A DNA stretch of 64,000 nucleotides, from NCBI GenBank assembly GCA_964016885.1, contig OZ024752.1, positions 44,702,001 through 44,766,000 on the forward strand. Direction: 5' to 3'. The position numbers and the translations under genes are program-made. The notes under the pieces are model-generated. The model was not told the origin of the DNA. It searched no databases and saw nothing but the letters and a program-made list of their open reading frames with translations. Shown in pieces: positions 5,327 through 59,439 of the stretch (its first letter is position 1; every line of letters starts with the position of its first letter). This stretch comes from Eledone cirrhosa (taxonomy: Eukaryota).

Positions 5327-14956
<9,630 letters not shown>

Positions 14957-32074: not shown

Positions 32075-32131
<57 letters not shown>

Positions 32132-35100: not shown

Positions 35101-38100
35101 AGGTTATTTCATAATTTCATAATTCAATAAAAAAGCAGTTACCTGAAATTCTTTCAGCATTATAGAAAGTGCTTTAGAAAATATTTTATCCAGCTTTTCT
35201 GTTAATTCATGACTGGTAGTCTACAAAAATAAATTAAAAAACAATCAAATATGTGGGGTTCCATAAAAAAAAAACAAAAACAAAACATTATTTAATGTCA
35301 CATGGATAGGGCGGTGGATTGGCAGTATCGGTAGAGGGTCGGACGCCATGCTTTCCAGCATAGTTACGTCCCTTTACGATCTGAGTTCAAATCCCGCCAA
35401 GGTTGACTTTGCCTTTCATCCTTACGGGGTCGATAAAATAAAGTACCAGTAATGCACTGGGTAATTTGCTGGCCTTGTGCCTAGAGTAGAAACAATTATT
35501 TAATGTCACATGTATATTCAGAATAAAATTTTAATTTTGCAATATTAATCATTAACTTCAGAAAACCATCTGACCACGTACTAACCATCTCACCATCTGA
35601 CCACGTACTAACCATCTCACCACCTGACCACGTACTAACCATCTCCCCATCTGACTACGTACTAACCATCTCACCACCTGACCACGTACTAACCAGGAAA
35701 CCACCTGACTACGTACTAACCATCTCACCATCTGACCACGTACTAACCATCTCACCATCTGACTACGTACTAACCATCTCCCCATCTGACTACGTACTAA
35801 CCATCTCACCACCTGACCACGTACTAACCAGGAAACCACCTGACCACGTACTAACCATCTCACCATCTGACCACGTACTAACCATCTCCCCATCTGACTA
35901 CGTACTAACCATCTCACCACCTGACCACGTACTAACCAGGAAACCACCTGACCACGTACTAACCATCTCACCATCTGACCACGTACTCACCATCTCACCA
36001 CCTGACCACGTACTAACCAGGAAACCACTAGACACATTTTATCCTAAACAGAATTCAAGAATGTTTTTGCAACTTTTTGATAATTTTCTATAAAAAGTTG
36101 ATGAAAGGAGGTGAGATATGACATTGAAGACAACCATAAATACCTCAGCAAACCCTGGTTCAATCACAGTCCATAATATAGTAATAGAATCCAAAAAGCC
36201 TTGAATTATATTCTTCTCCAAATGAAAGACACATTCAGTTCCCCAATCTTCTTCTAAATCACTAGATTTATCCTGGAAAGAGAGTAAACTTAAATTACCT
36301 TAAATCTCATACATTGTTATATATTCTACAACTATACTTGAATACAATAATTATAAGATTAACAATGCTATGGCTTATATAACATCTCTTTAGCAATCTT
36401 CATAATGAAACAAATAACATATTTCTTTTCTTAAGAAGTAAAGTTAACCATCTCCAGTTAAATCACCATTTAAACATCCAAATGAGCTCTGGAGACGGAC
36501 AGGACCTATTGGAAGGAGTATTTCAGGACTCCGCCCCCCCCCGTCTCTCTCAGGTATAATTGGGCGAAGAAGAATATGTCAAACATCAACTTGATTACAA
36601 AGATGTTATTTTACAAAATTCTTCCAAATTATTAAAATTATTTAAAAAAATTAATTGGAACATTTAAAATTTAATCGAATCATTATAAAATATAGAAGTG
36701 AAAGGATTAAATCGTTAACTTATTAAACATTGCTAATTATTAGAAATGTTTTTACCTTTGAAGTGCAACTTTGAAATGCAACTTACCTTTGAAGTTTCAC
36801 TGTCAATAATGGATTCATCAGCAGTCCGTTTCTTATCACGGATATAACGAAGTATACAGGAACACAGCAATATAATAAAAGAAACTAAAAATAAAATAAA
36901 ATATTTTCATAGTAGTTTTATAACATAATTCAACAGCGCCTTCGGTGCTGGGAAATACGGTAATTTAATGTCATCTTATTTTGGCTTTTCAAATGACTAA
37001 ATATAATAAAAACAACTCACCGACTTGCTCTAAAGTCATAAACTTTGGAGCATGTTGGAAGAATACACGTGATGCTGCTGGATTAGTTTCTAGTAGTGAG
37101 ATGACTCGGTTGATTTTAACTTCAACTGGTTTATCAAGAGGGAGATAATTATTAAATATAACCTTCATAATACGTCGAGCTACAGGCTGGGAGTCAGTAG
37201 CTAGTCTTATCAGCAAGTGTTCAACAGGTACAATAGACCAGTACTAACAAAAGAAAACAATTATAACCATTAATTAATAAATATATATATAAAGAATTGT
37301 TTTTAAAATATAAAAACTGGAAAGAAGTAGGTGGAGAAGTTAAAACAGCTTGAAATACAGCAATTTATCATAATAAACTGTACATAAGACTACGTATCAT
37401 ATTTCCTTTATTATAATAACCAATACATAAAGCTATGTATCATACTTTCTTCAAAGATTTTTTTCAAACAAGCATGTGTACAAAATCCTACTGTGTTAAA
37501 AATAATTAACTGTGGAGCAAATTATTCATTAAAGTATTACGAGATACAGTTTCACATTAAATATTGATTCACAATTGTTTCATCCTTATTGGGACTTATC
37601 GAAATCAATCATTTTATAAACAAATACCTCAACATATTGATCTCAGCACACAGACCAAGATGGAGGCTACACTACTTAAACATCATTATGAAGGAATGTG
37701 ATTAACTTTCAAACTTAGGACCAATAAAACTATAAATATAATTAATTTCTAGCCTAATTCTTCAACTGCAATAAATAAAATATACAAGTAAAAACTATAA
37801 TATTCATAAATCAAATGATTATGTAAAGAAGATGTAAGATGATAACAAGCAAAAACTCTCAGGTTACCTTAATTTTACGTAAACCTTTTACTTTTATAAG
37901 AAGGTTAACCATAGCAATGCGGACCCTCTCTGATGAGTCATGAAAGAGATTCTGGAGCTCAGGAAGAATAGGATGTAGAATCAAATGACAGTAATGGCAA
38001 TTAAAGAGAAGAACGATGCCCTGTAAATAAATAAAATGGTAATTAAAAAGAGTAAGACCCTTCAGTGACCAATAAAACCATAATGGAATATTAAAAAAAA

Positions 38101-41100
38101 ATGTTCAACATATTTTGCAGAATTAACAAAAATACCAAAATAAATATTTTCATTCATCTTCATCATTATTCTTCAATATAATGGTAATTATCAATTCTTT
38201 ACTCAGAATTTAAGGGCCAAAAGACTGGCTTGAGGGAGGTTTTTTTTTCTCTGAAGACCTTCTGCTGCTCCACTGAGAGTTTCTTACCAATATGTATTAA
38301 AACTCTGACTTTACCCTCTTCTTTCAAAACTTGTACAGAGTTATCCATTTTACCAAATTATATAATTCCCTAGATATGTATTACAGTCAGAAACACCCTT
38401 CATACCTTTACAATAATAATTCCTAAGGTCATTGATACTAAAACTGTTCCATTAACCCTTTACCATTTACATTACTCTATATTTACTATCATATTTTTGT
38501 GTGGTAAAGACTTTACTTCACATAACATTTACATTACTCTATATATACTATTGTATTTTCGTGGTAAAGGCTTTATCTCACATAACATTTACATTACTCT
38601 ATATATACTATTGTATTTTCGTGGTAAAGGCTTTATCTCACATAACATTTACATTACTCTATATATACTATTGTATTTTCGTGGTAAAGGCTTTATCTCA
38701 CATAATGTCGAATCTATGAGATTTTGAAGTTATTTATTTTGAGAACAATACCTTAATGTCAGAATGAACGGCCAGTTACAACCAGTTTGAACAGAAAGAG
38801 GTGAGAGAATTCTGGCCAGATATGGAGAGTTTAAATACTGAAGGGTTAAAGCAGTGACTAAATTTCCATATAAGTAAAAGTACAAACATATCTTCTGATT
38901 GAAGAAGAAACATGTAATATTTACTTTTAAGACTGATTCTCGTACTTCAGCACAGCTACTGTCCCAAGCTAATTCTTCAATTAAAGTTGTAATATAAGAT
39001 CTGATTACTTCTTTTGGTATCATCTGCCAATAGGCAGATAAGATTTGACAAACACCCAAAATAGCACGACTTCGAATTGCTGGGCAGGGATCCATTAATA
39101 GAATCTGTGAGAAAGACAAAACAATAATCATAATCAGTTATGAGAGAAAATACTATTCAGATATATATAAATAAGATATCTAAAATTAATTTAATTAACA
39201 CAAAATCATCATAATTATCTCTGTATAACTTAGTTAACGATGTGTGATTAATTGTACTACTTAAAATTTTCTAATTTAAAAAAAAAAAAAAACATTTTAT
39301 ACTTGACAAAACTTACATCCAAAGCATTGAACTGATTCTGAAGTAGATCATTGTTAATTTGTACCCCACTTGTAGGATTCTGGATGGGAAACGCATCAAT
39401 AAGAAGATACAAGGAGTTGAGTCGAATCACAGAATTTGTTGCCTGAAGAGAGAGAAAAGAGAAGAGAAATTAGTTACTGATTTTTCCCCCCAAAACAAAA
39501 AAGAAAACCTAATAACTTTCAGACATTTACCTTTAAAGATCTCCATAAAAGTGGGCCATAGAGATGGTGCAACATTTCAGCAACTCCTTTCTGTTTTTTC
39601 TGCCTGTGTATGTAGGCTATAATCTAAAACATTAATCAAAACATTCATAAAGAAATTATCTTGACATTATTTCAAACAATAAGATAGCAATATTTTGATA
39701 CATGTCCATACTAAGAAGCTTCATTTCATATACTTTTGATGGATTAAAAATTGTTACCACTTAGAATTTAACTACTATTGACTCCAAAGCAGAGGTAGAC
39801 ATTGTATGTGGTGGGATAACACAGAAAATATACTGTTTGTGGTGGGATAACACAGAAGGTATACTGTATGTGGTGGGATAACACAGAAGGTATTCTGTTT
39901 GTGGTAGGCTAACACAGAAGGTATACTGTATATGGTGGGATAACATAGGCTAACATGGAAGGTGGACTGTATGTGGTAGGCTAACACAGGAATAGTTGGT
40001 AGTAAAAGCAAAAATGAAATAAATTTTTTCATTATTCGAGACTCAAGAGTAAAACTATTGAGAAAACCTACTTTAACAATGCCTGACTTTGTCTAAATAC
40101 TAAACTTCATGTTGAGACACCAACAGAAACCCAAGTGTCAATATATCAACAATGTATTTTCATTTATATACCTTTATGTTTTGGTGAATAAAGTTTTTCA
40201 AGTAAAGAGTGTTGGTATGTGTGAAACCCAAGCACAGTAACACTGAAATAACAGCAAACAATTTAGAAGAAAGAAGGGGACGCCAGTATACAAGAGATGA
40301 TATCATTGGCAGGAGTTTCTTATGGAAATAATGTCAATTATATCAAAAGGATTAAAGTTAAGATAAAACTTACTTTTCTCAAATCTTTCACTAACTGTAT
40401 ACCAGATGCATGAATAGCATTAGATAAGATGTCTTGAATGATTCCAATTTCAATTTTCTAAAAACAATGGTAAAAGTTTTACATGTCAATATCAATGGGA
40501 ATTTGATATGGAAAGAAAAAAGCAATTTATAGATATATTTCTTTTGAATGAAACAGTTTTAGTCCTGTAGAAGCCATTTCTATATTTAACTTGATGTTTA
40601 TACTTTACTAATGTATTGAGTATCTTAGTTACTGTGGTTACCCCCCAACTGAACCCAACACACACGCATACATATATATATATGAGAGGAAATAGAAATA
40701 TCTGTTTTATGTAGGCTAATTCATGTAAATATACATTGTGGGTTAGTCAATTATATAACAATCAGCTCTCAGGTAATTACATAACTGTATTGAAACATGG
40801 TAGAGACACTACTTGGCAATAAATCTTCCTTTGAATTTTAACAGATTTTGCCTAGTTTTTCCTTATACCCTATTCCCTTTATATTTACACACACACACAT
40901 TCTAGTGTGGAAGATGGACATTAAATGACACACATGGTTCAACTTCGCTGAAGCTAACAGGAATATATTAATAAACAACAACTAACCGGTTTCATTTCAT
41001 CAGTACTCATTTGCCAGGTACGGAAGTAAATCAGTCCATAATTTGGAATCAGATTTCTGTAAAAATATAAAATACAGACATAAATATACAAGAAGATATC

Positions 41101-44100
41101 TCTTCAAAATTTTACACAAGTATTCCGTACTCTCCTATAATTACTTTAGATTCCAGTTCCTTACTTTACACAACCTAAAGCCCCATATACCATCGGGTAA
41201 AGAGAGAGAACTGTTCATCATTAATAACAACACATACAACGAACAGGCTATCACCCAAAGCACCCAGTCTTTACTATAAAGTGGTTGTGTAGGTGTCATG
41301 ACAAAAGACACCCAGTCCACACTGTAAAGTGGTTGTGTTGGTGTCATGACAAAAGGCACCCAGTCCACACTGTAAAGTGGTTGTGTTGGTGTCATGACAA
41401 AAGGCACCCAGTCCACACTGTAAAGTGGTTGTGTAGGTGTCATGACAAAAGACACCCAGTCCACACTGTAAAGTGGTTGTGTTGGTGTCATGAGAAAAGA
41501 CACCCAGTCCACACTGTAAAGTAGTTGTGTAGGTGTCATGACAAAAGGCACCCAGTCCACACTGTAAAGTGGTTGTGTTGGTGTCATGAGAAAAGACACC
41601 CAGTCCACACTGTAAAGTAGTTGTGTTGGTGTCATGACAAAAGGCACCCAGTCCACACTGTAAAGTGGTTGTGTAGGTGTCATGACAAAAGACACCCAGT
41701 TCACACTGTAAAATGGTTGTGTTGGTGTCATGAGAAAAGACACCCAGTCCACACTGTAAAGTAGTTGTGTAGGTGTCATGACAAAAGGCACCCAGTCCAC
41801 ACTGTAAAGTGGTTGTGTTGGTGTCATGACAAAAGGCACCCAGTCCACACTGTAAAGTGGTTGTGTTGGTGTCATGACAAAAGGCACCCTCTCACCAAGC
41901 CACCCCAACCATTCACAGCACCCACCACCCATTTCACAAACACAATACATAAAAGCAGCTAACTCATCAGAGCTTTATAAGTTTTACACCCTTGATTCCT
42001 CCCTAACAGCTAAGCAGGTACCCAAAAGCATCACAGGTATCACACAACCAAAGTCTGCAACCCTAAGTTGTTCCAGTTATTCCAAACAGTTGCAGCAGAA
42101 CACAGAATATACAGCCTTATAACTAATAACAAGATATTTACCTAGGAACTGTAACCAATGTTTTCTTTATGAGTTCATGACAGCTTTTCATAAAATCAAA
42201 ATTCAATGGCAATATAGATCCTAGTACTCGCACTCCCTAGAAAGATAAAACAAAAACATAAATAATCTTCTGTACTTATCTGATAACATGTATATATTAC
42301 ATGGAGATAAAACCATGAAATAGATAAGGAAATGGATTGATCAACTTACATCTTGTTTTCTTAGAAATCGTGGACTCACAAAACTTTCAGAAATTAAATT
42401 TTTCAGATCTTGAGAAACAGAGTCATCGAAATTAATTAAAGGAAAAACATCACGGAACTGCCAAAGTCTCTTCATTGTTTTACACTAAAAATATATAAAA
42501 TAAAACGGTGAAATCTCTCTCTCTATATATATATATATATCCACATATGTGTTTAATCTAATTCCCACACCTTTCCTGTCCAACCCATACAGGTGTGGAA
42601 ATAACAGTTATGTATGATGATTAAGAAAAAAACAGATCATGAAATATATACTAGAAAACAGAAGCCAACTTACAGTAGATTTTCCATTCAGATTTATTTG
42701 AAATAAATACTGAAGTGTATTTTCATAAACAGCCTCTCGACCTGGCTTTTCCATTGCCCAAAACATTTCAAACAGTTCTGAGAAGTTGTTCTTCAAGTTA
42801 GCCACAGTGTCAGGCAATGGTAAAAGTAAATCTGAAAGTAAAAAAATAATAATAATTATAATCTTCTAAAATATAACCTTGTATGTAAAATTAGAATTAC
42901 TCCACCTAATTTAGTTGAGATACTAACACCCCTCCTCAGCTTGTCTGGGAGGTCAGTAGCCTCACTTCAGTAGTGACTTGGTCTATGTAGACTTGTCTAA
43001 CCCCTACTAGCAGGGAAAGTGGATGTTAAACGATGATGATCTGATAATTTATCAAAAAATTTATTGAACAAAAATTAGAATTTGTAGTCTTCAAAAAAGC
43101 TAATAAGCTTTAGAAAAAATTGGAACATTTACATTAGTTAACCCTTTAGCATTTACATTACTCTCTATATATACTATTGTATTTTCATGGTAAAGGGTTT
43201 ACCTCACATAATATCTCACATAACATTTACATTACAGAAAGAGGTGAGAGAATTCTGGCTGGATTAAGCCAGTTTAAATGAACATACACAAAAATAAAAT
43301 TTGTGCCAATTAAGAAACATTTCATTTAGGAATTTCTAGAAATTATATTTACCATGAAATAATATACACATTTCCAAAAGAGGAGGTGGTATCCCTAATT
43401 TGTCAGACATAACTGTAGCTGTTGCTAACACAGTTAAACAATCAAGAGATCGGAACACTTGCACCATTTCCTGTAAGAAAAAAATTATATATTAAAAATT
43501 TTAATAATTTAAAAAGCCATACAATGCATTAGAAAATTAAAGGTGCCAAGATAACAATAGAATCTTACCTTAGCAAATTTAATAATCCCAAATATTTTCA
43601 TGTTTAAAAACCCATTACCAAGTGAGTATCGCTGTGAAGGTCTTAAAGGATCGGTTGGAGATGAGTTGTTAGAAAAGTAGATTTAAGTTAAATATGTCTT
43701 TTTTTCATTACATTTAACTTAAATCTACCTTACCTACCAACTAATCTCCGATTGATCCTTTAAAACCTTCACAAGGATACTTCCTTGATAATGGCAAAGC
43801 TAACTTCGGCAGGCTTTGAACTCAGATTGTAAACGGTTGTAACCCTCTCACATAAAGCATGTTATCCGATGCTCTACCAATACTGCCAATCCATCACCCT
43901 TAACTAAATATTATTGCTCCAAGTACCCCCAACACTTTTTAAAATATTAAAATATATTGTATAAACTTACGTCCTGTGAGGAGTTATGACTTGATTCTAA
44001 ATTCAGCAGGAGAGTTGTGGCAATTTTAAGCAAATTTTGCCACAATTCTTCCAGTCCTTTACGGCTGTAACCGCTAAGGACTTCTTCCCAAACGTCATGA

Positions 44101-45822
44101 GAATTGCTTTTCTGTAAAAAGACACACAAAGAAAAAAATTATACATTTCATGACTTTGATTTATGTAAAAATTTACTTTAAAATTAAATGAAAAAACAAA
44201 ACAAAATCAATGTCGACTCTGATCGAGACGAAGCGAGAGTGTAATTGAATACATAAACATTGAGAAAACTCATCGCTAGGACCGTTAAAGCAGCTAAATG
44301 TTGTCAAAGACAGAGATAGGCAACAGAGAGACAATCTACAAGGTGGTCCCCCACCTTGTAGATTGTCTCTCTGGTGACTACTGCCTGTTTTAGCGATGAG
44401 CTATCTCATTTTTTTATATACAGGGTGGTCCGAAAGTCTTGTCACCCCTACATATTGTTTTAACTTTCATTATTTCTTACGGGGTCGATAAAATAAAGTA
44501 CCAGTAATGTACTGAGTATTTGCTGGCCTTGTGCCAAAAGTAGAAACAATTATTTTTGTTTTAATATAAAATATATCACTAATTATAATATATAATAATA
44601 ATATAATTTTCTTTTTGGTAGAGGGTGACAAGACTTTCGGACCACCCTGCACTTTAGAATATTTTTACAATAAATTAGCACAACAATGTAAATAGTAATC
44701 GAACCAAATTTATGTCTAAAATTCGTGATCACTAATTATCAATATTACCTAACATAGCTTGTAGTTTTAGAGAGGTTTCGCTATAGGTATATAAAATAAC
44801 GGAAACTTAGACATTGTCTTGCCTTATTTGGTGAGCAGCAATTACAGACTGTTGTCAACTGCATGAAATAATTATCTTATGTTGTTTATTATATATATAT
44901 ATATATACAGATGTTAATATATATACATACACCGATGTTAATATACATACACATATAGATGTTTACATACATACAACGATGTTAATATATATATACATAT
45001 ATACAACGATGTTAATATATATACATTGATGTTAATATATACATACATATATACAACGATGTTAATATACATACACATATAGATGTTTACATATATACAA
45101 AGATGTTAATATATATACATTGATGTTAATATATATATACAACGATGTTAATATATACATACATATATACAACGATGTTAATATACATACACATATAGAT
45201 GTTTACATATATACAACGATGTTAATATACATACACATATAGATGTTTACATATATACAACGATGTTAATATATATACATTGATGTTAATATATATATAC
45301 ATTGATGTTAATATATATATATACAACGTTGTTTATATATATACATTGATGTTAATATATATACATTGATGTTAATATATATATATATACAACGATGTTA
45401 ATATATATACATTGATGTTAATAAATGTATAACACTATTAATTATTAAAGATAATCTAAACACATTATAATATTTCAGATCCAGACTTTATCCTATTACA
45501 ATAATTGTTTACATTTGTCAAGAAGGAACAGTCGACATTCGTTTAAAAGGTTGACAGTAATATTTCATAACACCAGTGTTGACAAAGTCTTCTCATTGAA
45601 CAATATTGTCAAATATTATCATAAAAAGTTATTAATTTAAAGTATTTTAATTAATTTAAAACATTTTAAACACATCAAACACTCGTTTGTTATGAAAAGA
45701 AAAAAATAGGAAAGGTTTGTTATGTAGAGAAAACGTGTATTTACTGCCTGTATGATAAAAGAAACAAGTTGTACGGGGTCCTCCTTAGCTACAACAGCAG
45801 TTAATTCATTTCGTCTCACCAT
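26835..45822 (-). CDS. NCAPG2: Condensin-2 complex subunit G2 (HEAT-repeat protein), 28 coding exons, ~1155 aa
   Basis: Phase-consistent exons: 45745-45822, 43971-44111, 43353-43470, 42674-42831, 42350-42484, 42142-42236, 40987-41056, 40374-40457, 39531-39623, 39317-39442, 38925-39104, 37868-38020, 37021-37243, 36787-36884, 36144-36272, 35143-35220, 34884-34954, 34460-34637, 33618-33785, 33218-33334, 32523-32708, 32137-32236, 31383-31555, 30058-30201, 29602-29696 (acceptor could be 29711), 28495-28601, 27803-27902, 26835-26904. The peptides SRKGLEELWQNL, IYFRTW, GVAEMLHHLYGPLLWRSLKATNS, LLMDPCPAIRSRAILGVCQILSAYW, FHDSSERVRIA and VEHLLIRLATDSQPVARR match CAP-G2. The last few exons are less certain. 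Confidence 0.9.
30331..31115. repeat. 48-bp minisatellite (~16 copies) running into a SINE/RTE-tail repeat (to ~31277)
   Basis: Unit aagtggtcgtgatggtgacatgacagaaagcacccagtccacactgta. Confidence 0.92.
31704..31909. mobile_element. piggyBac-like MITE (TTAA flanks, TIR CCCTTTAGCATT); other copies at 6325-6525, 28316-28446, 38452-38849, 50138-50924, 51490-51777 and 61539-61754; fragments at ~3550-3670, 22833-23002, 43139-43280 and 63760-63885
   Basis: TTAA|CCCTTTAGCATT...AAAT(G/A)CTAAAGGG|TTAA with a conserved internal sequence. At 61539-61754, removing the element and one TTAA restores the LINE frame KLINDIM, confirming a TTAA duplication. Confidence 0.8.
32858..33060 (+). mobile_element. tRNA-derived SINE inserted into a TTAA-MITE fragment
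   Basis: Same head and core; MITE sequence is present on both sides (32822-32856 and 33061-33125). Confidence 0.7.
35305..35500 (+). mobile_element. Full-length tRNA-derived SINE with an 18-bp target-site duplication
   Basis: A-box-like TGGCAGTATCGG, B-box-like GAGTTCAAATCCC, core GCCTTTCATCCTTACGGGGTCGATAAAATAAAGTACCAGT and tail GTAGAAACAATTATT. The direct repeat attatttaatgtcacatg occurs at 35287-35304 and 35495-35512. Confidence 0.85.
35564..36028. repeat. 27-bp minisatellite (~17 copies) with higher-order variant periodicity
   Basis: Unit accatctgaccacgtactaaccatctc, with a recurring ccaggaa variant. Confidence 0.92.
38452..38849. mobile_element. piggyBac-like MITE with an internal 60-bp tandem expansion (~4 copies)
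   Basis: TTAA flanks; a 60-bp unit is repeated over ~38465-38705. Confidence 0.8.
39800..39990. repeat. ~31-bp degenerate minisatellite (~6 copies)
   Basis: Unit gtatactgtatgtggtgggataacacagaag. Confidence 0.8.
41257..41890. repeat. 48-bp minisatellite (~13 copies), same family as 30331-31115
   Basis: Unit aagtggttgtgttggtgtcatgacaaaaggcacccagtccacactgta. Confidence 0.92.
44421..44649. mobile_element. Tc1/mariner-type MITE carrying a nested SINE 3' fragment (~44477-44553)
   Basis: Perfect 27-bp TIRs cagggtggtccgaaagtcttgtcaccc / gggtgacaagactttcggaccaccctg, with TA on the left flank. Confidence 0.75.
44905..45422. repeat. Degenerate AT-rich minisatellite in NCAPG2 intron 1
   Basis: Recurrent gatgttaatatatatacat / acaacgatgtt units of variable length. 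Confidence 0.85.
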
Positions 45823-46210: not shown

Positions 46211-46310
46211 TGTACTCTTTCATACCTCGAGTATCCATTTCCAAATATTAAAAAACCGTTATATATATATATATTGTAACACACACACACATATATATAT
46301 TTATATATAT

Positions 46311-46572
46311 ATAGGAACGAGTAGGACCCCGACGGCTGAGCTCAAGCCGTTTCGACGGCTAATTCTGGACTAATTTGAGTCCAGAATTAGCCGTCGAAAC
46401 GGCTTGAGCTCAGCCGTCGGGGTCCTACTCGTTCCTATTACCCACTCTACTATCCTAAGTAGTGAGTACTTTGGTGCGTTATGGTCCACCTGGTTCCTTA
46501 CCACATTTCCTCCGTTATAGTAGAGTGGGTAATAGGAACGAGTAGGACCTACTGGAGTCCTACTCGTTCCCA
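46311..46572. mobile_element. Penelope-like short element (family B), with a ~61-bp perfect inverted duplication
   Basis: Arms at ~46311-46371 and ~46378-46438 are exact reverse complements. Contains GAAA-CGGCT-tgagctc-AGCCG-TC and has (TA)n flanks. Confidence 0.55.
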
Positions 46573-47465: not shown

Positions 47466-47785
47466 TGTAACAAAATTAGACTTGAGGTGCTGTCCAAAGG
47501 ACAGCACCTTACAACACTTGAAAAACATTAAAAAACACAGTCAAACAAATTTAATAGAAAATATATTTTGTTTATTTTCTTTCAGTAAAATAGATTACAT
47601 CTTCCTTTTGTTTTAAGACATTTTATTTGGTTTCTTTTACAGAGAAATAAATACAGTGGAATGTAGTAAGATGTCTGTGTAGGGATGAAATATTTACAAT
47701 GGTATATTTTTCTTTCCCCCCTCTCTAAAACTAAGAATTTTATATATTAAAATAAAGCAAACATCGAAAGTTGTTGTTCATGAAT

Positions 47786-49921: not shown

Positions 49922-50016
49922 TTACACATTGTAAGCCATGTAAGGAATTCGTTTGACAATGTGCTGCAAAGGCAAACAGAAAGAAGGAAAGTAAGAAAAG
50001 CAATGAATTTAATAAT

Positions 50017-50055
<39 letters not shown>

Positions 50056-53000
50056 CACTACTACCATCACCACCACCACCACAAACACTACTACTACTAC
50101 TACTACTATAAAACCCTTGACATGTGTGACCTTGTGTTTAACCCTTTAGCATTTAAACTAGCCATATCGGGTCAGAATTCTCTCACCTCTTTCTGTTCAA
50201 ACCGGTTATAACTGGCCATTCATACTGACGTTAATAATATCAAAATTAATAATATAAAAATCTCATAGATTCGATATTATGTGAAGTAAAGTGTTTATTG
50301 TGAAAATACAATAGTATATATAGAGTAATGTAAATATTATGTGAGATATTATGTGAGGTAAAGCCTTTACTGTGAAAATACAATAGTATATATAGAGTAA
50401 TGTAAATGTTATGTGAGATATTATGTGAGGTAAAGCCTTTACTGTGACAATACAATAGTATATATAGAGTAATGTAAATATTATGTGAGATATTATGTGA
50501 GGTAAAGCCTTTACTGTGAAAATACAATAGTATATATAGAGTAATGTAAATGTTATGTGAGATATTATGTGAGGTAAAGCCTTTACTGTGAAAATACAAT
50601 AGTATATATAGAGTAATGTAAATATTATGTGAGATATTATGTGAGGTAAAGCCTTTACTGTGAAAATACAATAGTATATATAGAGTAATGTAAATGTTAT
50701 GTGAGATATTATGTGAGGTAAAGCCTTTACTGTGAAAATACAATAGTATATATAGAGTAATGTAAATATTATGTGAGATATTATGTGAGGTAAAGCCTTT
50801 ACTGTGAAAATACAATAGTATATATAGAGTCATGTAAATGTTATGTGAGATATTATGTGGGGTAAAGCCTTTACCGTGAAAATACAATAGTATATATAGA
50901 GTAATGTAAATGGTAAAGGGTTAACAAAGAAATACTAATTAATACCAGTTAAGGTGCTTAGTATAAGTCCCTGTATGGTATGAAGTTCACATGTACAAGT
51001 GGTTAGAATCCTTGACTCGCTCATAAGATCAGTTCGATTCCCAGACTGGGCAGTGCGTTGTGTCCTTGAGCAAGACACTTACTTTTAAATTTTCTCAATC
51101 CACTCACTGCTAGGGGAGTTAACTCTGTGCCAGCAGCTGCTAGGGGAGTTAACTCTGTGACTAACTGGTGTCGCGTTAGAGTGGTGTATTCTCAATCACT
51201 TAACGCCAAACAAAATTGGGATAAGATCCAGCCTGATGAAGAAAAATGGAATGAGATGTTTGGGTCATGTGTTGAGGAAAATGGTGGTGGTGGTGAACAG
51301 TGGTAATGTCTACTCACACTATTGTAGATGAAACTGTCGGCTGCTTTACCATAGTCCCAGCCACAACATTCCAAACACCTGAAACAGAACAATACTATAG
51401 AACTTATCACTTTTAGTATCATAACTAACACAAACACTTCTCCATTCAACATATCTCCTAATTAAACACTCATCAATTACAACAGTGTCTTAACCCTTTA
51501 GCATTTAAACCGGTCATATCCGGTCAGAATTCTCTCACCTCTTTCTGTTCAAACCGGTCTTAACTGGCCATTGATACCGTCATTAAGGTATTGTTCTCAA
51601 AATAGATAATATCAAAATCTCATAGATTCAATATTATGCGAGATAAAGCCTTTACAATGAAAATATAATAGTATATATAGAGTAATGTAAATGGTATGTG
51701 AGATATTATGTAAGATAAAGCGTTTACCATGAAAATACAATAATAAATATAGAATAATGTAAATGCTAAACGGTTAAAGCAAGTCAAATAAAAGACACAC
51801 AAAAAAAAAACACTCGATAAAACTTACCATGTACTAAACTGTGGGGTGAAATTTGTAAACAACGAAAACTGTTCCATCATAATTCTTTTGAGAGCTTCGT
51901 CAAATTCATTAGACTTATCTTTGTTGGCTTTCTTACCACTTTTGGGGATAGATGGTACTAAGTGTTGTCTAACAGGAAAGAAACTGTCACAGAATTGTGG
52001 TACTTGTGGGAACATATAATGAACAGAATCAGATGGGAAAGTCATCCCGGCAGTACCGTCTTGTAGGAATCCTGATGGGTTGAAAAAGTTGTTGACTGGG
52101 AAGTTTGAGTAACTGGTGCATGGCATTATCTGGAATAAAACACAATTATATCGAATGAGAGTGTATATAGGTGTAAATATGGCTTACCTGCATATGTTTG
52201 TAAGTTATGTACATGTGAAAAAGTGTGTATATGTATGATGTATATATATGAATGTGTGTATGTATGTTTGTATGTTTGTATATATGCATGTATGTGTGTA
52301 TATATGTGTGTATGTATGTATGCCTGTATGTATATAAATACATCCATCTGAGGATCTGAATAAGGTGAAACATTTGTTCTCGGTATGGTGAACTGTTGTG
52401 GAACTACTTCTATATATATATATATGTATGTATACATGCACACACACACACACACATGTATATATATATGTGTGTGTGTCTGTGTGTGTGTCTTATTGAG
52501 GCATTAATCCACTGATATCACTCTACAGCTAATTAGAATTGACTCGATTCTGACCAATGTCTATGTAAATAAATAAGCAAAGAGAATGACTTTTCAATGT
52601 ACCAATATAAGACCTGCGAATGTTTACCTTACAATGTCTTTCATGGACGTCTGTTTCTGCCACTACTTGCTTCTTCAGTCAGTGTAGAAAGAGACAAGTT
52701 TCCATGAAGCCTTACTATAAATAGCAGTCAGTCACAACAGGGATGAATATAAAGTGATCGCAACATAGAAGGGGGATAAAGGAAACATATTTGTCTACAA
52801 CCTAAAAAAACTCATGTTTTAACCAAAGAGATGGAAATACCTCTCTCTCGAGGAAGGACCAGTTTAAAAGTGCCTCCTCCAATATACAGTGGTGGCCATA
52901 ACTAGACCCTGAAACCAATGGTACACATACATGTTAAGTGTATGAAAATGTTTATACTAAATATAGGGTAAAGACCTCTTTCGGTCAACAATGACCATGG

Positions 53001-53650
53001 GGTTTGCACCTACAAAGCTCTACTCTGAGGTGCAACAGGCAAGGTTGTTTGTGGAACTATAGGGTAACTAAAAATCCATAAACATCACAAGGTACAGCTT
53101 GTTTTATCAAATTAAACCAGTTATTTACTGAAAAAAACAAAAGAGCTGCTCATCAGGAGAAACTAAACAATGTTAGTATTTGTCTTCAAAACCGTTTGCC
53201 AGGAATAACTGGGAATTCAAAGAGTCGGATCAGATGTTGCAAAGCATCCAGTCCAACTCTTTTTAACAATTTCATCATTCCTCTAACCCTGGACTGGAAC
53301 CTTATTTATGGATCTTGAAAGAATATAAGGAAAATTTCACCTGAGTGGGATTTGAACTTAGAACACAGAGAGCTGGAACAAATACTGAGGAGACATTTTA
53401 TCTGACATTTTAACTACTCTGCCATTTTGATATTAATTCACAGGAAATTATTTACAACTAATTAGAAACTCATTGCTGATTATTCAACCATTTAAATATT
53501 TGGCAATTTAAACTAAAAAGTAATGATTCAAGAAGCTTCAGCTTCTAATATATACTCACTCTTCTTTAGGTATTGAGTACTATTTTCGTTTGTAAACAGA
53601 AATGTTCAAATTGACATATTTGTATACATATTACACACACACACACACAC

Positions 53651-53688
<38 letters not shown>

Positions 53689-56600
53689 GTATATATATAT
53701 GTGTGTATGTGTATATATATACACACATGTGTGGATGTATGTATCTAAGTATGATATATATAGGCATAATTATGCCTGGATGTGAAATGAAATGTTTTAC
53801 ACTTGCTTTTCCATGCTTACATGGGTTAGACGGGTCATTTCCAGCACAGCATCCCTCTACTTGTTGCGGTCCTTTCTTATCTCCTCTGTCAATTTCAGTG
53901 ATTTGAGATCAGCTCTAACAACCTCTGCCCAGATCTTCCATCATCTTCCTCTACTGCAGCTTCCTTCCACTCGGATTTCTTTGCACTACTTCCTGTACAC
54001 TACATCTGATTCCTCTTATATCCAGCTTTTCTCTCATCTCATCCATGCTTTGCCATTCATGCATGTTCAGTGCTTTTCTTGGAGCATGTTCACTGCGTTT
54101 CTCTCTAGTCTTTGCATATCTTCTGCATTCATTGTTCATGTTTTGCTGCTATGCAACATTGCACTTTGCACACAGGCATCATACAGCCAGTTCTTTTTCA
54201 TACAGAGAAACCTTTTGTTGTCATCAGGGGCAGTAGCTCCCTTAAACCTTTTCCATCCTGTTCTTACTCTAGCTACTATACTCTCAGAGCAACCTATTCC
54301 ACTGCTACTTTGATCAAATAAGTAGCAGAAGCTATCAACCACTTCTATGGATCATTCCTGGGATCGGAAATTTTTTATTTCACTGAGGCTTCAACTATCA
54401 ATGATCCATGTACCACATACGATGTCTACAGACTCTCTCTCACACACACACACATATATATATAAACATACATGTATATATATATATATATAATAGATAT
54501 ATATGTAATAGTGAAGGTGTGTGGCTGAGTGGTTAGAGTATTGGATTCACAATCGTGAGGTTGTGAGTTCAATTTCTGGACTGGGTGATGTGTTATGTCC
54601 TTGAGCAAGACACTTTATTTCACGTTGTGGCCGGTAGATAGTATTAGCAGTTGGAAAGATCAATGGAAACATTGTTTCCTCGGTCCGATTTGATGAAAAG
54701 TCGATCGACTGTCTATATATGTGTATATAAATATGTGTATGTGTGTGTGTGTTAAAGTATGTATCTATGTATGGAGCTAATGTAGCCACATCAAAGCTCT
54801 CTTCTGCCTTCCACATTATTTTCCACCATTCCTCTTACCCAGTTACTTTCACCATTCTTCAAAACATCACCTTGATATCTCTTTCCAGATGAAATAATCC
54901 TAGCTGAAACAAACTTGATCACAAGTCTATTTAATCAGGGATAACTGGGGACTAAATAACAATAACTATAGTCACTATAGCACACTTTACAACAGCTTAG
55001 ATCTCACACATATTTCACTTTTGTGGCTTCCTTTTATTTTCAGTGAATTCACTTCTATAAAATTTTACATACTTTCCTTTTTCACATCTTAATTTATAAT
55101 CTTTATAGGTGCAGACATGGCTGTATGGTTAACAAGTTTGCTTCACAGTTACATAGATTTATGAGTGTACTTTGGTAGACAGAAGCTTGTATGAGATCTA
55201 AGCTGTTGTACACACATATATATATATATACATATACACTTATACACACTCATACACACACATATATAGGGTGTACATTAGAATTATCATGTGTATGTAT
55301 ATATAACAAATTTTTACAGGCATTAGAAAATTAAATTTCGTCACTTTATTGTCATTATAAGCATTCAAGGCACAAACCTTATTTTCTATTGGTGGGTCTA
55401 TCCAGTTCTTGCTGTCACGAAAGTTTAGAAAGCTGTAAGGGATATCATAGTTGTAAAATCCCCCATTGTTGAACACCTCATCGGAGGGTTCACGTATCGC
55501 ATAGTGCTGTTCATCGGGTAAACTGAGAGTTTGGTTGGGAAAATAACAACTGGTTGCTTCCTGTGTGGTCTGTGATGAAATTGATGGATTCGAGCTTTGG
55601 CTGTAATCCAATGGAAGAAAGAACTCCATGTTTGGCACTGTGTATTCATTGTGCCACACATTTTTATCATATTCACAAAAGTTCTGCTGATATGTAGTAT
55701 AATCATCCACCGCGTGACTCCACCTCCACGATGGAGGGTTGTATGAGGTGAAGTCCTCCCTTTCCCTGTTTCGAGATTCAGTAAATGATGGCTTTTTCGT
55801 GGAGACTTGTTGCTTCTGTGGACTATCTTGACTGGGTTCAGTACTTTTAGGGGAAGACTCATAATCATGGCTGCTACCAGGATAATTACTACGTCGTTCT
55901 TCCTCGGAATGTCTCGACCCACGACTGCTGTTCTTACTCTTTGACAAAGTCTGGTAACTCTTCTTTCTTGGATAACATTGGATGTTATCTGACGACCGAG
56001 GGGTGAAACTTCGATGCCAAGTATGGGTTTGTTCACGTGATGGTGTACTGGAATCTCGACGTTTGGAAACAGTGTACTCGCCTTTCGATTGATGACGGTT
56101 TGTCCTTTTTGGAGGCTTCTGTTTTTCAGATTTGGAATGACTATCTGAAAATCAAAATAAATGTTTATTATTATTTTCAAAAGGAGGTGCCCCAGCATGG
56201 CCACAGTCAAATAACTGAAACCAGTAAAAGAAAAACAACACTAGAAATGAGAGGAAAGTTCGTTTATCATTCACCATTTTTTTCACATCTTTAGATATAG
56301 ATATTGGTAAATCTTAAATTTTTAAGTAAAAGTAAATACAAAGGTAAAAGCTTAAGAAACACTTCCTTTTCAATTGAGGGCCTCCTCATTGTTGGTGGAA
56401 CCCTTCACTAGTTGATCTCAACCACTTTTGAGGTTTTGTATAAACATATTTATTAGTAGAGTGTTGAGTAAAACAGGTATAACATGTACCCCTTGCTAGC
56501 CTACATCAAAGACGATGTAGTATTGATTGTTTTATTGAGTCTGACCAGTAGAAGGCTCTGCAAGAGTATGGGATTGATGGGCAGTTCCCTGTTGCCTTGA

Positions 56601-57016
56601 ACTCCCTGTTTTCTACTATAGCCTCAGGTTGAAAGTGGAATTTGGCAGGCAGAAACTGCAAAAGCCTATATATGTGTTTAATGTAACTATTCGACAAAGG
56701 GAGATCGACAAAATAAGTACCACCAAGACAGTGCGTTAATATTGTTGCAGCTTAATTCCCCGAAACCAGTAAAATAATAAATGATTTAAATTGTTTATTA
56801 TTAGACAGGACATCAACGATATCGTAATAAAGACCAAGTGTAATAAATATAAGGTGGTAGAGTTGTTACGGCGTCGGATAGAATACTTTGCAGTATTCAT
56901 TCTGGGTATTTGAGCTCTGAGTTCAAATCCCGCCGAGGTTAACTTTGTCTTCCATCCCTTTCGGGTTCGGTAACGTGTTAGTCCAGTACTGGAGGGATCG
57001 ACACTCCCTCTCGCTG

Positions 57017-57050
<34 letters not shown>

Positions 57051-57393
57051 AAACGAGTCAGGACCCCCGACGGCCGTTTCCTATTATCCACTCTACTTCC
57101 CTAAGTATCGAGTACTCTGGTGCGTTATGGTCCACTTGGTATCTTACCACACTTTCTTTGTTATATATACAAGGAAGAAATTAGCTGTGGTGAAACCTGG
57201 AGAGAGATGGGTGCCGTCAGGCTGGTTTAAATTGCCGAAGTTGCATTTGTTGACGGTGTCTTATACTTCCATTAAGAAGTCAATAACAGTGAGAACAACG
57301 AAGCTAGAATTTAAACAAATAATAATCTGACTAGATATTAAATTACTTACTTTGAATAACAACTGACTTCAGTCGGGTACACTGCAATTCCAT
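49922..57393 (-). CDS. Uncharacterised protein: long Ser/Arg- and Tyr/Phe/Pro-rich low-complexity region plus a C-terminal NXF1/TAP-type UBA-like (TAP-C) domain
   Basis: Well-supported exons: 57351-57393 (frame open up to an acceptor at 57484), 55378-56144, 52342-52409, 51828-52129, 51318-51378 and 49922-49963 (stop). A bridging exon of phase 0 to 1 is needed; the best candidate is 54624-54708. The last three exons give KRIMMEQFSLFTNFTPQFSTW|CLECCGWDYGKAADSFIYNS|HIVKRIPYMAYNV*, which aligns by eye to the NXF1 C-terminus. The true 5' end is uncertain; a phase-compatible upstream exon candidate is 59943-60097. Confidence 0.7.
50138..50924. mobile_element. piggyBac-like MITE with an internal 72-bp tandem expansion (~9 copies)
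   Basis: TTAA flanks and TIRs. The unit tattatgtgagatattatgtgaggtaaagcctttactgtgaaaatacaatagtatatatagagtaatgtaaa is repeated over ~50270-50910. Confidence 0.8.
53806..54400 (-). mobile_element. RTE-clade LINE 3' fragment
   Basis: Remnant peptides VDSFCYL..SSG.GCSESIVARVRTGWKRFK, LYDACVQSAML and EMREKLDIRGI. It ends in the ccatg..agcatggaaaa tail shared with many short repeats in this window. Confidence 0.7.
54511..54627 (+). mobile_element. Second tRNA-derived SINE family (5' part); related fragment at ~50998-51085
   Basis: Head gtggctgagtggttagag...gtgagttcaattt with A/B-box-like motifs, followed by gtccttgagcaagacacttt. Confidence 0.6.
57050..57165. mobile_element. Penelope-like short element (family B), deleted copy
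   Basis: Shares cctattatccactctac...gagtactctggtgcgttatggtccac with 46433-46500 and is flanked by (TA)n/(AG)n. Confidence 0.5.
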
Positions 57394-59439
57394 ATTGAAT
57401 GTAAACACATCGGATAACTTAATTATTTCACAAGAAACATCATAACCATTATCAACTGCCTCAATTTCTTTTCCAATGTCCAGTCTATAAGTTTAGGTTA
57501 TTTTAACTGATTATTCCCGCTAGTTTGTTTACAATATAAAAACGATAATGAAATAATATAAACACGATTAAAAGCCCTGATTTGTTTTAATTGTGTTGTT
57601 GTTGTTTTTAAAACAATGTTTTGACTACATTAATCGGTTCTAAACATACCAAATATAACTTCTAATTAACTAATTAATTAAATTAACTACTAATATATCT
57701 GTAACACAATATTTCCAACCAAGTTTTAAATATATTTGTAGATATAAATTCCAGTGTTTAATTTTGGGGGAAATGAGATATTTCCACGTAAATTCGTCTT
57801 TATTCTTTCTCGTTTTACACCTTTTAAATGTTTCGCGTCCTCAAGAGAAACGGTTAATTGCGGCGTTTTCATAAGTTTCTCTCTCTTTTCTCACATTTTT
57901 AGAAGATAATTCCGAACCATTTAATTTCGTCAAAATCATGTTTTATTCCCCCCGTTTGTTTTATATCTAAATTTTTGTTTTTGTTTTTGTTTTGCAAATT
58001 TCTTGAATATTTTAAAAATAGAAACTTAACATTTTAAAAATAAGAATACTTCTCTTCTTCTTTGCCCACTTATTTCTGAGAGGGTCGTTATATATTTTAG
58101 GATATATCGTTGAAATATTTGTCTTTTTCTTCGCCTACGTATTCCTGAGAGGGTCATGGAACAGAGTCCCCAAACATTCCCTCTAACATGTCCTGTCAGA
58201 AGCAACCGTCTCCAACTGGTCCAGCTGGATCTCAAGCAAGACCAGCCAAATGTTATCCAACCATCTTGCTCAGGGTCTACCCCTGGGTCACCTGCCGGTT
58301 GGTTTTGCTCGTAAAATCTGTCCAGCGATTCTTCCCTGAGATATGAACAGGATTGACATGCGCACCCGGGTTGGAAATGGTATCATGGCTGACGGGTATG
58401 ATATTAAGAATACAATTTACAAAATGCCCCCGCCAAAAAGCGGAAAAAAGGGGAGAAAATAAAAAGAAAATGGGATTGAGGAGGAGACAAACTCTACACC
58501 CTTAGCTGGACGGTGTATCTCAGATCTGCTGCACTCCACCAATAAGATGGCGAAAGCATTTCCGCAGAGAACAGCCAGCGATACCCACCATATCAACCTT
58601 TCCTTCTTCAGACGGGATGCCGCCAGCCTGGTAACTTAATCTTCTCCCACTCCCCCGAGTTCCTAACAACATTGTCCGGGTTTATAGCCAAAATTATGAG
58701 GTTAAACCGGAGAAAATGTTGCAATAGTGGTGACCCATATGAGTAACTTATCCAACTAAAACGGGAAAAGGCTCTTATCTTGTCTGGGCAGTAATTATTT
58801 TAATGTGCAGTTGACCTTACTTCTGTAGTTCTAAATCTAACGTTGTACAGTAATTTAACATTTTGTGCTAAATATTACATGCACTTACATGGTAAACAAA
58901 GAATAGATGAATTACAACGCTAATAAAATGTTAACAACAGACATTACAAGTGCTTCTTCTCAAACCCAGAGAACAAGGAGTCATAACACACGCCTCAAAC
59001 GTCTGAGCAGTTCCAAAATATCTTTAAAACGAACCCTGCTTCTCGGACAGGCTTCAGCTGTGACGAGAAACCGACCGTGTCGAGTTTCCCGTTAGTTTCT
59101 TTTGTTTTCACATGTCCACATCTTCTCATTTCATTTTTATTCAACTGGGGAATACTTGGAGCTGTCGATCTGTTCTTGTCCATTAATAATAATAATAAAC
59201 TTTCCACTCTCAAGCGTGAACCTAATACTAACACTTTGCACTGCACTATTCGCTTTGTTTTTGTTTTCTGTTTTAACTATATATATATATAACTTTGAGT
59301 ATGTGTTGGTTGTTTATATATATATATATATCTTTGTAGACTCTATTTCCATGTTCCATGCCAGTACGAATTGAGTGAATGTCCTTGATGAGTGATTAAC
59401 TAATCTTGAAACAGCGCTATCTGACATTCCCAATCGTAT

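What the first reader, a model, noticed from the sequence alone, without database searches (positions are those of the whole stretch)
49922..57393. Spliced gene keeping only the NXF1/TAP C-terminal UBA-like (TAP-C) domain, fused to a long novel low-complexity region
Seen: three phase-consistent terminal exons encode KRIMMEQFSLFTNFTPQFSTW|CLECCGWDYGKAADSFIYNS|HIVKRIPYMAYNV*. Knowledge: this aligns with the NXF1/Mex67 C-terminal domain (human, from memory: [53 protein letters not shown]), including the CL...WDY..A..F and IP..AF/Y motifs. That domain binds FG-nucleoporins. The two introns also fall where I recall them in NXF1. Seen: the upstream exons (roughly 400 aa) are S/R/K-rich and then Y/F/P/Q-rich, with no recognisable RRM, LRR or NTF2-like domain, which NXF proteins normally have. 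Inference: a lineage-specific NXF offshoot made by partial duplication and exon recruitment. It could be a nuclear-pore-targeting adaptor, a competitor of bulk mRNA export, or a repurposed germline factor, as happened with Drosophila Nxf2/Nxf3 in the piRNA pathway.
Basis: partly seen in the sequence, partly recalled or inferred. Interest (0 to 1): 0.8.

Follow-up and report, generated by a model that had tools for sequence, protein, structure and literature searches.

The report
Octopus gene keeping only NXF tail
This five-exon gene model, conserved in octopuses and the paper nautilus, keeps only the small end domain of the mRNA export factor NXF1 on a long tail predicted to be disordered, so it likely cannot export mRNA and more likely uses that almost unchanging domain to dock onto a protein partner that is still unknown.

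Summary
Five GT-AG exons on the minus strand give an open 404-aa frame. Orthologues of the same length exist in three Octopus species and Argonauta hians. They pass Pfam's TAP_C cut-off and have no RRM, LRR or NTF2 hit. The domain folds as a UBA bundle; its best match is human NXF1 UBA (Z 8.0); the rest is predicted disordered. A complete NXF1 lies elsewhere. New: a second TAP-C-only paralogue (about 1,310 aa, G000:C28) shares the helix 2 intron and lacks helix 4. Both domains are more conserved than NXF1's own: 55/61 and 47/47 against 43/54 identical to Argonauta. Only one of the two introns is shared with octopus NXF1. No RNA data were available, so splicing rests on database gene models. 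Function is untested; a repurposed protein-docking module (as in fly Nxf2) is my best guess, nuclear-pore binding the main rival. Databases list both genes as uncharacterised; my ten literature searches found no description. The scan earlier noted a TAP-C domain outside NXF in Naegleria.

The parts
57351..57393 (-). Exon 1 (coding part): ATG at 57393, 14 codons + 1 nt, phase-1 donor GTAAGT
   Evidence: 14/14 identical to O. sinensis and O. bimaculoides models, 13/14 to Argonauta
55378..56144 (-). Exon 2, 767 nt: S/R/K-rich basic part (aa 15-148) then aromatic, acidic S/P/N/F/Y part (aa 149-270); predicted disordered; single copy in the genome
   Evidence: 79% and 63% identity to P0001 and P0002; no Pfam hit over cut-off
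51828..52129 (-). Exon 3, 302 nt: low-complexity linker (aa 271-344), then start of the UBA-like domain; phase-2 donor
51828..51907 (-). Extended helix 1 and helix 2 of the TAP-C/UBA-like domain (from aa 345)
   Evidence: aa 344-371 are 28/28 identical in three orthologues; helices 339-359 and 363-372 of P0001 at pLDDT about 90
51318..51378 (-). Exon 4, 61 nt: end of helix 2, Trp-Asp-Tyr loop, helix 3; phase-0 donor at the same position as in octopus NXF1
   Evidence: 76.5% DNA identity over 81 nt with the C28 paralogue exon
49922..49963 (-). Exon 5 (coding part), 13 codons + TAA: helix-4 segment with Ile-Pro-x-x-Ala-aromatic motif
   Evidence: matches the last exon of octopus NXF1 at C1555:41483 with one extra residue; 12/13 identical to Octopus orthologues
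50246..50920 (.). Tandem array of about 72-nt units inside intron 4; not coding for this gene
   Evidence: seen
47622..47627 (-). Candidate AATAAA polyadenylation signal about 2.3 kb after the stop, beyond simple repeats; use is inferred only

Best explanation
The locus is an intact, conserved octopod gene model whose 404-aa protein has a predicted disordered N-terminal region of about 340 residues and a C-terminal UBA-like domain likely copied from an NXF export-factor gene, and it likely works as an adaptor that docks through this domain onto one specific protein partner rather than exporting mRNA. Shown: exon structure, TAP_C match, absence of the other NXF domains, a separate NXF1, a second TAP-C-only paralogue, near-invariance of the domain. 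Inferred origin: a DNA-level partial duplication of the 3' end of an NXF gene (introns kept, so not a retrocopy), recruitment of unrelated upstream exons, then a second duplication before Octopus and Argonauta split. Inferred mechanism: without RRM-LRR and NTF2-like domains it would not bind RNA cargo or NXT1 in the NXF way and has at most one FG site, where export needs two. The three-helix core would bind a partner helix on its helix 1/helix 3 face, as fly Nxf2 UBA binds Panoramix, and the basic then aromatic-rich disordered tail would supply nuclear targeting and weak multivalent contacts.
For: Intact frame and same model in four other species. TAP_C 31.5 and 29 bits, no LRR, NTF2 or RRM family at E<=10. 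LRR and NTF2 family hits in the genome are at C1555 (canonical NXF1) or unrelated places, none on C12; NXF1 hits the window only at exon 4 and one chance place. Among 11 UBA-like loci of this genome plus two NXF1 proteins, NXF1 scores best: 70-82 against 38/33 for the full DCN1-like domain and at most 56 for the others, several of them only partial exons. Fold: top VIA match 1oai, Z 8.0, 59 of 59 aligned. Domain conservation exceeds NXF1's: 55/61 (this gene) and 47/47 (paralogue) against 43/54, while upstream regions are 55-65% and 26-54% identical to Argonauta. The paralogue lacks helix 4 yet its core is invariant, so the constraint does not need an intact NXF-type C-terminus. The position of Nxf2 V800 (Panoramix contact, passages of 10.1101/608273) is Phe in both paralogues but Gln in octopus and human NXF1 (register). 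Pocket position 606 is Asn in both paralogues, Leu or Phe in NXF1. Two FG sites are needed for export (passages).
Against: No partner is known and no binding or expression data exist. Of six hydrophobic Panoramix-contact positions this protein has five large hydrophobic residues, but octopus NXF1 already has four, so the gain is one residue; the two acidic Nxf2 contacts (E799, D837) are Leu and Tyr here. FG-pocket features are partly kept (Cys588, Trp594, Asp595 equivalents, small Ser at 602, no Nxf2-type Glu/Lys pair). Z 8.0 is modest for a small helical bundle, rows within 1 of it are tied (FAM100B 7.1, Chaetomium Mex67 7.0), Foldseek gave no E<=0.001 match, and the fold alignment included two NXF1 rows.
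Confidence: 0.5

Rival explanations
1. Nuclear-pore adaptor or competitor: the domain still binds FG nucleoporins and carries the disordered, basic tail (and what it binds) to the pore, or competes with NXF1 there.
For: Equivalents of human Cys588, Trp594, Asp595, Tyr596, Phe603, Pro613 and Ala616 are kept, 617 is Tyr, 602 is small (Ser), and the Nxf2 salt-bridge positions are Cys and Asn. A Cys lies in the Chaetomium pocket (passages of PMC4498709). Helix-4 exon kept in this gene; best fold match is the FxFG-bound NXF1 UBA. N-terminal 148 aa have 31 K+R against 17 D+E.
Against: One site gives weak binding, and mutation of either site abolishes nucleoporin binding of human NXF1 (passage of 10.1101/609693). 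Position 606 is polar. The paralogue lost helix 4 and an O. bimaculoides isoform model skips it. Helix 4 has pLDDT under 50 in the model. FG binding alone would not obviously explain higher conservation than NXF1's own domain.
Confidence: 0.27
2. Ubiquitin-reading adaptor: the domain acts as an ordinary UBA and binds ubiquitin or a ubiquitylated factor.
For: UBA fold shared with ubiquitin-binding TDP2 and Dcn1 domains, Z 6.9 and 6.4; a near-invariant target such as ubiquitin would explain near-invariance of the domain (inference). That yeast Mex67 UBA binds ubiquitin is recalled.
Against: No UBA, UBA_4, UBA_8 or CUE Pfam hit for either paralogue; 13-18% identity to those structures.
Confidence: 0.12
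3. The domain comes from another UBA-like family (DCN1, p47, UBALD/FAM100, TDP2) and resembles TAP-C by chance.
For: Foldseek ranks FAM100B UBA first, just ahead of 1oai; the phase-2 intron is absent from octopus NXF1; the tree of 12 short rows did not resolve the placement.
Against: TAP_C is the only UBA-clan Pfam hit; pairwise scores favour NXF1; the terminal Ile-Pro-x-x-Ala-aromatic exon, the C-terminal position and the phase-0 intron match NXF1.
Confidence: 0.06
4. Pseudogene remnant or a wrongly stitched model.
For: No spliced read was seen here; relatives' proteins are predicted models, and the O. vulgaris model uses another start.
Against: Open frames of 399-416 aa in four other species, indels in frame, domain far more conserved than flanks; between paralogues pN 0.23 against pS 0.59 over 46 codons.
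Confidence: 0.03

Closest known systems
NXF1/TAP (Mex67) mRNA export receptor; UBA/TAP-C domain, Pfam PF03943, PDB 1oai
   Same: C-terminal three-helix UBA-like domain plus helix-4 segment, about 32% identical to octopus NXF1 over 53 aa; shared phase-0 intron before the last exon.
   Different: No RRM, LRR or NTF2-like domain; unrelated disordered N-terminus; extra phase-2 intron; helix 1 extended by about eight residues in the model; pocket position 606 Asn.
Drosophila Nxf2 in the SFiNX/PICTS/Pandas complex (PDB 6opf, 6iew)
   Same: An NXF paralogue whose UBA is repurposed as a protein-docking module; fold match Z 6.7, 61 aligned; hydrophobic residue at the V800 position.
   Different: Nxf2 keeps RRM-LRR units and an NTF2-like domain and binds Nxt1 (passages); here none is present. 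The Nxf2 pocket-closing salt bridge and its acidic Panoramix contacts are absent. No Panoramix-like partner was looked for or found.
Domain-reduced NXF variants: human NXF3, short Nxf1 from intron retention
   Same: NXF relatives that lost domains and took tissue-specific roles (passages of PMC12234887; search listing of PMC5170612).
   Different: NXF3 loses the pore-binding C-terminal domain and keeps RRM and NTF2-like domains; the octopod genes keep only the C-terminal domain.
Database entries LOC118762906, LOC106881497 (UniRef 'TAP-C domain-containing protein'), Ahia01_000352700
   Same: Orthologues of this gene, 66-82% identical.
   Different: Automatic annotations only; none of the four LOC ids searched occurs in the main text of any paper held.

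Membership tests
NXF/TAP/Mex67 export receptors | C-terminal TAP-C/UBA domain | tested here: met
   PF03943 31.5 bits, cut-off 21.3; VIA Z 8.0 to 1oai
NXF/TAP/Mex67 export receptors | RRM and LRR RNA-binding unit | tested here: not met
   No Pfam hit in orthologues; LRR_NXF hits not on C12; NXF1 does not align to the N-terminal region; pLDDT under 50 for 27-338
NXF/TAP/Mex67 export receptors | NTF2-like domain that binds NXT1/p15 | tested here: not met
   NXF_NTF2 hits only at C1555 and a weak one on C3; none in the protein
NXF/TAP/Mex67 export receptors | FG-nucleoporin binding by the UBA pocket | tested here: inconclusive
   Residue comparison mixed: 588, 594, 595 kept, 602 small, 606 polar
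NXF/TAP/Mex67 export receptors | mRNA export activity, nuclear-rim localisation | not testable with these tools
   needs cell assays
TAP-C domain family (PF03943), descent from NXF | Closest UBA-like relative is NXF1; shared gene structure | tested here: met
   pairwise scores 70-82 against at most 56; one of two introns shared; tree unresolved
Nxf2-type piRNA silencing factor (SFiNX) | Nxt1-binding NTF2-like domain and RRM-LRR units | tested here: not met
Nxf2-type piRNA silencing factor (SFiNX) | Hydrophobic helix 1/3/4 face binding a partner helix | tested here: inconclusive
   5 of 6 contact positions large hydrophobic against 4 of 6 in octopus NXF1; acidic contacts absent
Nxf2-type piRNA silencing factor (SFiNX) | Gonad-biased expression, transposon de-repression on loss | not testable with these tools
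   no expression table with these gene ids found
UBA_4/UBA_8 domains (DCN1, p47, TDP2, UBALD) | Pfam match to PF14555 or PF22566 | tested here: not met
   no hit in P0001, P0002, P0006, P0007; neither locus among genome hits

The most novel reading that the evidence does not exclude
Octopods built a two-gene family of NXF-UBA-only proteins whose nearly invariant domain binds a shared, octopod-specific RNA-silencing or export-gating factor, an independent counterpart of the fly Nxf2-Panoramix module that holds back transposon or edited transcripts in germline or neurons.
Probability: 0.13. Interest if true: 0.82.

Novelty: new variant of a known kind. Interest (0 to 1): 0.5.

Why it matters
The NXF paralogues described in the papers I read keep the NTF2-like domain and often lose or close the UBA. 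Here only the UBA is kept, in two genes, and it is under stronger constraint than in the essential export receptor. That points to a new, specific interaction in octopod nuclei and gives a small soluble bait (about 60 aa) to find it. If the partner belongs to transposon control or RNA retention, it would link export-factor repurposing to the repeat-rich cephalopod genome. If it binds FG repeats, it is a natural one-site pore adaptor. Without expression or binding data it remains a well-supported orphan gene family.

Tried and rejected
RNA evidence: no RNA holder listed. The three coded runs laid on 51250-57800 cover introns as evenly as exons, so they are DNA of one sample, possibly the assembly's own; none of the 15 joints shown (174 not shown) is a predicted splice junction; exon 5 lay outside the stretch. 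Complex prediction of the domain (P0001 336-401) with a 41-aa FG-rich stretch of a nucleoporin-like exon on C24: score 0.01, no verdict, no evidence either way. The best Nucleoporin_FG hits in the genome were tandem-repeat artefacts. Tree of 12 short rows: 0 of 9 inner branches starred, long branches, uninformative. Single-sequence fold of the paralogue's first 1,200 aa: pLDDT 29, not usable. ESM Atlas: domain hits at 0.80 or less, leads only; no usable hit for paralogue residues 220-700. PDB sequence search: 1oai first but E 0.32; GDF5 hits at E 0.5 judged chance. A candidate extra exon at 57147-57300 has stops in all three frames as translated with flanks and is absent from orthologue models: rejected. 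First DNA pattern missed the window's copy through one extra base; the corrected pattern found exactly the two paralogues. No remnant of the helix-4 exon within about 50 kb after the paralogue's exon B. Gene ids not found in supplements: PMC9476566 (12 of 22 files searched), PMC11202624 (no per-gene table), PMC9712504 (one scanned file unread); unread files and closed bioRxiv supplements may hold expression data. One paper id was not held, so human intron positions stay unchecked. TAP_C hit on C20 is another UBA-like protein, score 25-30.
Full report
Observation. On the minus strand, exons 57393-57351, 56144-55378, 52129-51828, 51378-51318 and 49963-49922 are bounded by GT-AG introns of phases 1, 0, 2, 0 and give an open frame of 404 aa. 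The window is G000:C12:44702001-44766000 of a 3.0-Gb genome. A search with exon 2 found 2 proteins among 281 candidates: Octopus sinensis LOC118762906 (401 aa, 79% identical) and Argonauta hians Ahia01_000352700 (404 aa, 63%). The first cluster also holds O. vulgaris and two O. bimaculoides isoforms. The O. sinensis, O. bimaculoides and Argonauta models begin with the same first exon and join the same exons as my model; the O. vulgaris model has another start. All are predicted models; I saw no spliced RNA.

The domain. P0001 and P0002 score 31.5 and 29 bits on Pfam TAP_C (cut-off 21.3); no LRR, NTF2, RRM or other UBA family appears. The matched stretch is identical in the window's protein. 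AlphaFold2 on a 10-row alignment that included two NXF1 rows gives pLDDT about 90 for residues 340-380, helices at 339-359, 363-372 and 377-386, and under 50 for 27-338 and most of the last ten residues. Of 48,161 chains the top VIA match is human NXF1 UBA with FxFG peptide (1oai, Z 8.0, rmsd 2.9, 59 aligned), then FAM100B (7.1), Chaetomium Mex67 (7.0), TDP2 (6.9), yeast Mex67 (6.8) and fly Nxf2 (6.7); such Z values are modest for small helical bundles, and Foldseek gave nothing at E<=0.001. To test other origins I scored the domain against 11 UBA-like loci of this genome and two NXF1 proteins: NXF1 70-82 (z 11.7-17.6), the full DCN1-like domain 38 and 33, the others at most 56, several being single-exon parts (family names of these loci are recalled).

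A separate NXF1. Contig C1555 carries LRR (26716-28189), NTF2 (36773-38745) and TAP_C (40698-40835) in order, and octopus NXF1 maps there exon by exon. No LRR or NTF2 hit lies on C12, and NXF1 aligns to the window only at exon 4 and one chance place. NXF1 has a phase-0 intron four residues after the helix-3 Phe, followed by a 12-aa last exon; this gene has the intron at the same place and a 13-aa last exon with the same Ile-Pro-x-x-Ala-aromatic motif. NXF1 has no intron at the Trp|Cys position where this gene has a phase-2 intron. So one of two introns is shared; either NXF1 lost the other after the duplication or the offshoot gained it. Kept introns argue for a DNA-level partial duplication (inference). 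In the three Octopus species this gene and NXF1 are recorded on contigs of the same length, so likely the same chromosome; in Argonauta they are not: weak evidence.

A second TAP-C-only gene. G000:C28 holds a 1,303-codon open frame that ends in the same helix 1-2 segment, with the same phase-2 intron and a 59-nt next exon. Its orthologues are O. bimaculoides LOC106884196, O. sinensis LOC118767288 and Argonauta Ahia01_000734800, 1,271-1,318 aa, TAP_C 27.4 and 26.6 bits and no other family over cut-off. Its donor is shifted to phase 1 and its models end a few residues after helix 3, without helix 4; the Argonauta model has a longer unrelated tail. The N-terminal regions of the two paralogues do not align. 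An exact pattern found these two loci only. A profile search of 1.84 billion representatives gave 4 hits at E<=0.001: this gene, two paralogue-2 proteins, and P0008, an unnamed 87-aa ENA protein that is 81% identical over 27 aa, ends at the same exon boundary and has unrelated upstream sequence. No named hit lies outside octopods; absence elsewhere may reflect missing annotation.

Selection. Against O. sinensis, O. bimaculoides and Argonauta, residues 344-404 are 60/61, 60/61 and 55/61 identical (344-391: 48/48, 48/48, 46/48), residues 15-343 by region 73-84% and 55-65%. In the paralogue the 47-aa core is 100% identical in all three comparisons while upstream blocks are 26-54% identical to Argonauta. 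NXF1's own last 54 aa are 43/54 identical between O. sinensis and Argonauta. Between the two paralogues pN is 0.23 and pS 0.59 over 46 codons (corrected by hand, omega about 0.23, small sample). This excludes a decaying remnant and points to a strongly constrained surface.

Mechanism. [quoted passage not shown] This protein lacks the RNA-binding unit and the NXT1-binding domain, so it is not an export receptor of the NXF kind (inference from shown absence). With human numbering from 1oai the pocket side keeps Cys588, Trp594, Asp595 and Tyr596, has Ser at 602 (small, as the Zhao preprint says FG binding needs; octopus NXF1 has Val), lacks the Nxf2 Glu/Lys pair, but has Asn at 606 where NXF1 has Leu or Phe. 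On the other face, five of six Nxf2 hydrophobic contact positions are large hydrophobic (four of six in octopus NXF1), the gain being Phe at 577 in both paralogues; the acidic contacts are absent. The paralogue keeps an invariant core without helix 4. I therefore favour a repurposed docking module for one specific partner (0.5) over FG binding (0.27) or ubiquitin binding (0.12). The tail is Ser/Arg/Lys-rich (31 K+R, 17 D+E in 1-148) then aromatic and acidic (34 F/Y/W in 149-343), which would suit nuclear targeting and multivalent contacts; untested.

Comparison and novelty. Known reduced NXFs keep the NTF2-like domain: human NXF3 lacks the LRR and the pore-binding end (passages of PMC12234887). 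My ten literature searches showed no description of a UBA-only NXF derivative or of these genes, and none of four LOC ids occurs in a main text held; subscription papers are mostly not covered. UniRef labels the O. bimaculoides entries 'TAP-C domain-containing protein'. An earlier scan note reports a TAP-C domain with zinc knuckles in Naegleria (unchecked), so the domain may leave NXF more than once. Papers seen: passages of 10.1101/609693, 10.1101/608273, PMC4498709, PMC12234887; abstract of PMC7785250 (not used); supplements searched for PMC9476566, PMC11202624, PMC9712504; the rest as search listings.

Verdict. A real, conserved octopod gene and one of a pair; not a member of the NXF export receptors, but derived from one. 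New variant of a known kind; interest 0.5, limited by the lack of any expression, localisation or binding data.

Noticed in passing
G000:C28:57654785-57662290 (+), L008 2785-6693 and L009 231-289: Second TAP-C-only gene with a giant single coding exon of about 1,290 codons, Phe/Leu/Lys/Cys-rich, no Pfam family, no Atlas hit; core domain invariant in four octopods; helix 4 lost.
   Followed up: yes
G000:C1555:14489-41520 (+), L012-L015: Canonical NXF1 sits on an unplaced 137-kb contig; linker and UBA helices 1-3 are one exon.
   Followed up: yes
window 51192-51317 (-): Read-through of intron 4 stays open for about 40 codons; an O. bimaculoides isoform model (X2) ends this way, giving a form without helix 4 like the paralogue.
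   Followed up: partly
window 6749-11711 (-): Exons of a TCP-1/CCT chaperonin subunit (Pfam Cpn60_TCP1); CCT4 by recall.
   Followed up: partly
window 17737-28036 (+): Exons resembling a WD40 protein with a long Ser/Pro-rich exon at 22990-23742; DTL/Cdt2-like by recall, no Pfam confirmation.
   Followed up: no
window 31359-44138 (-): HEAT-repeat gene downstream on the same strand (weak HEAT hit); condensin II subunit NCAPG2-like by recall.
   Followed up: no
window 46310-46435: Near-perfect inverted repeat of about 55-nt arms, with related copies at 46540-46570 and 57050-57150; looks like a small non-autonomous mobile element.
   Followed up: no
window 50246-50920 and 16570-17632: Tandem arrays (about 72-nt and about 69-nt units) giving long spurious open frames; the first is built from a dispersed repeat with many copies in the window.
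   Followed up: no
L058 1049-2803 (-) and L059 129-2486 (+): Long FG-rich exons (21 and 7 FG) on C24 and C3, likely nucleoporins.
   Followed up: partly
P0008 (unnamed ENA record): 87-aa protein ending at the same exon boundary, closer to this gene than to the paralogue, upstream sequence unrelated; may mark a more distant relative.
   Followed up: partly
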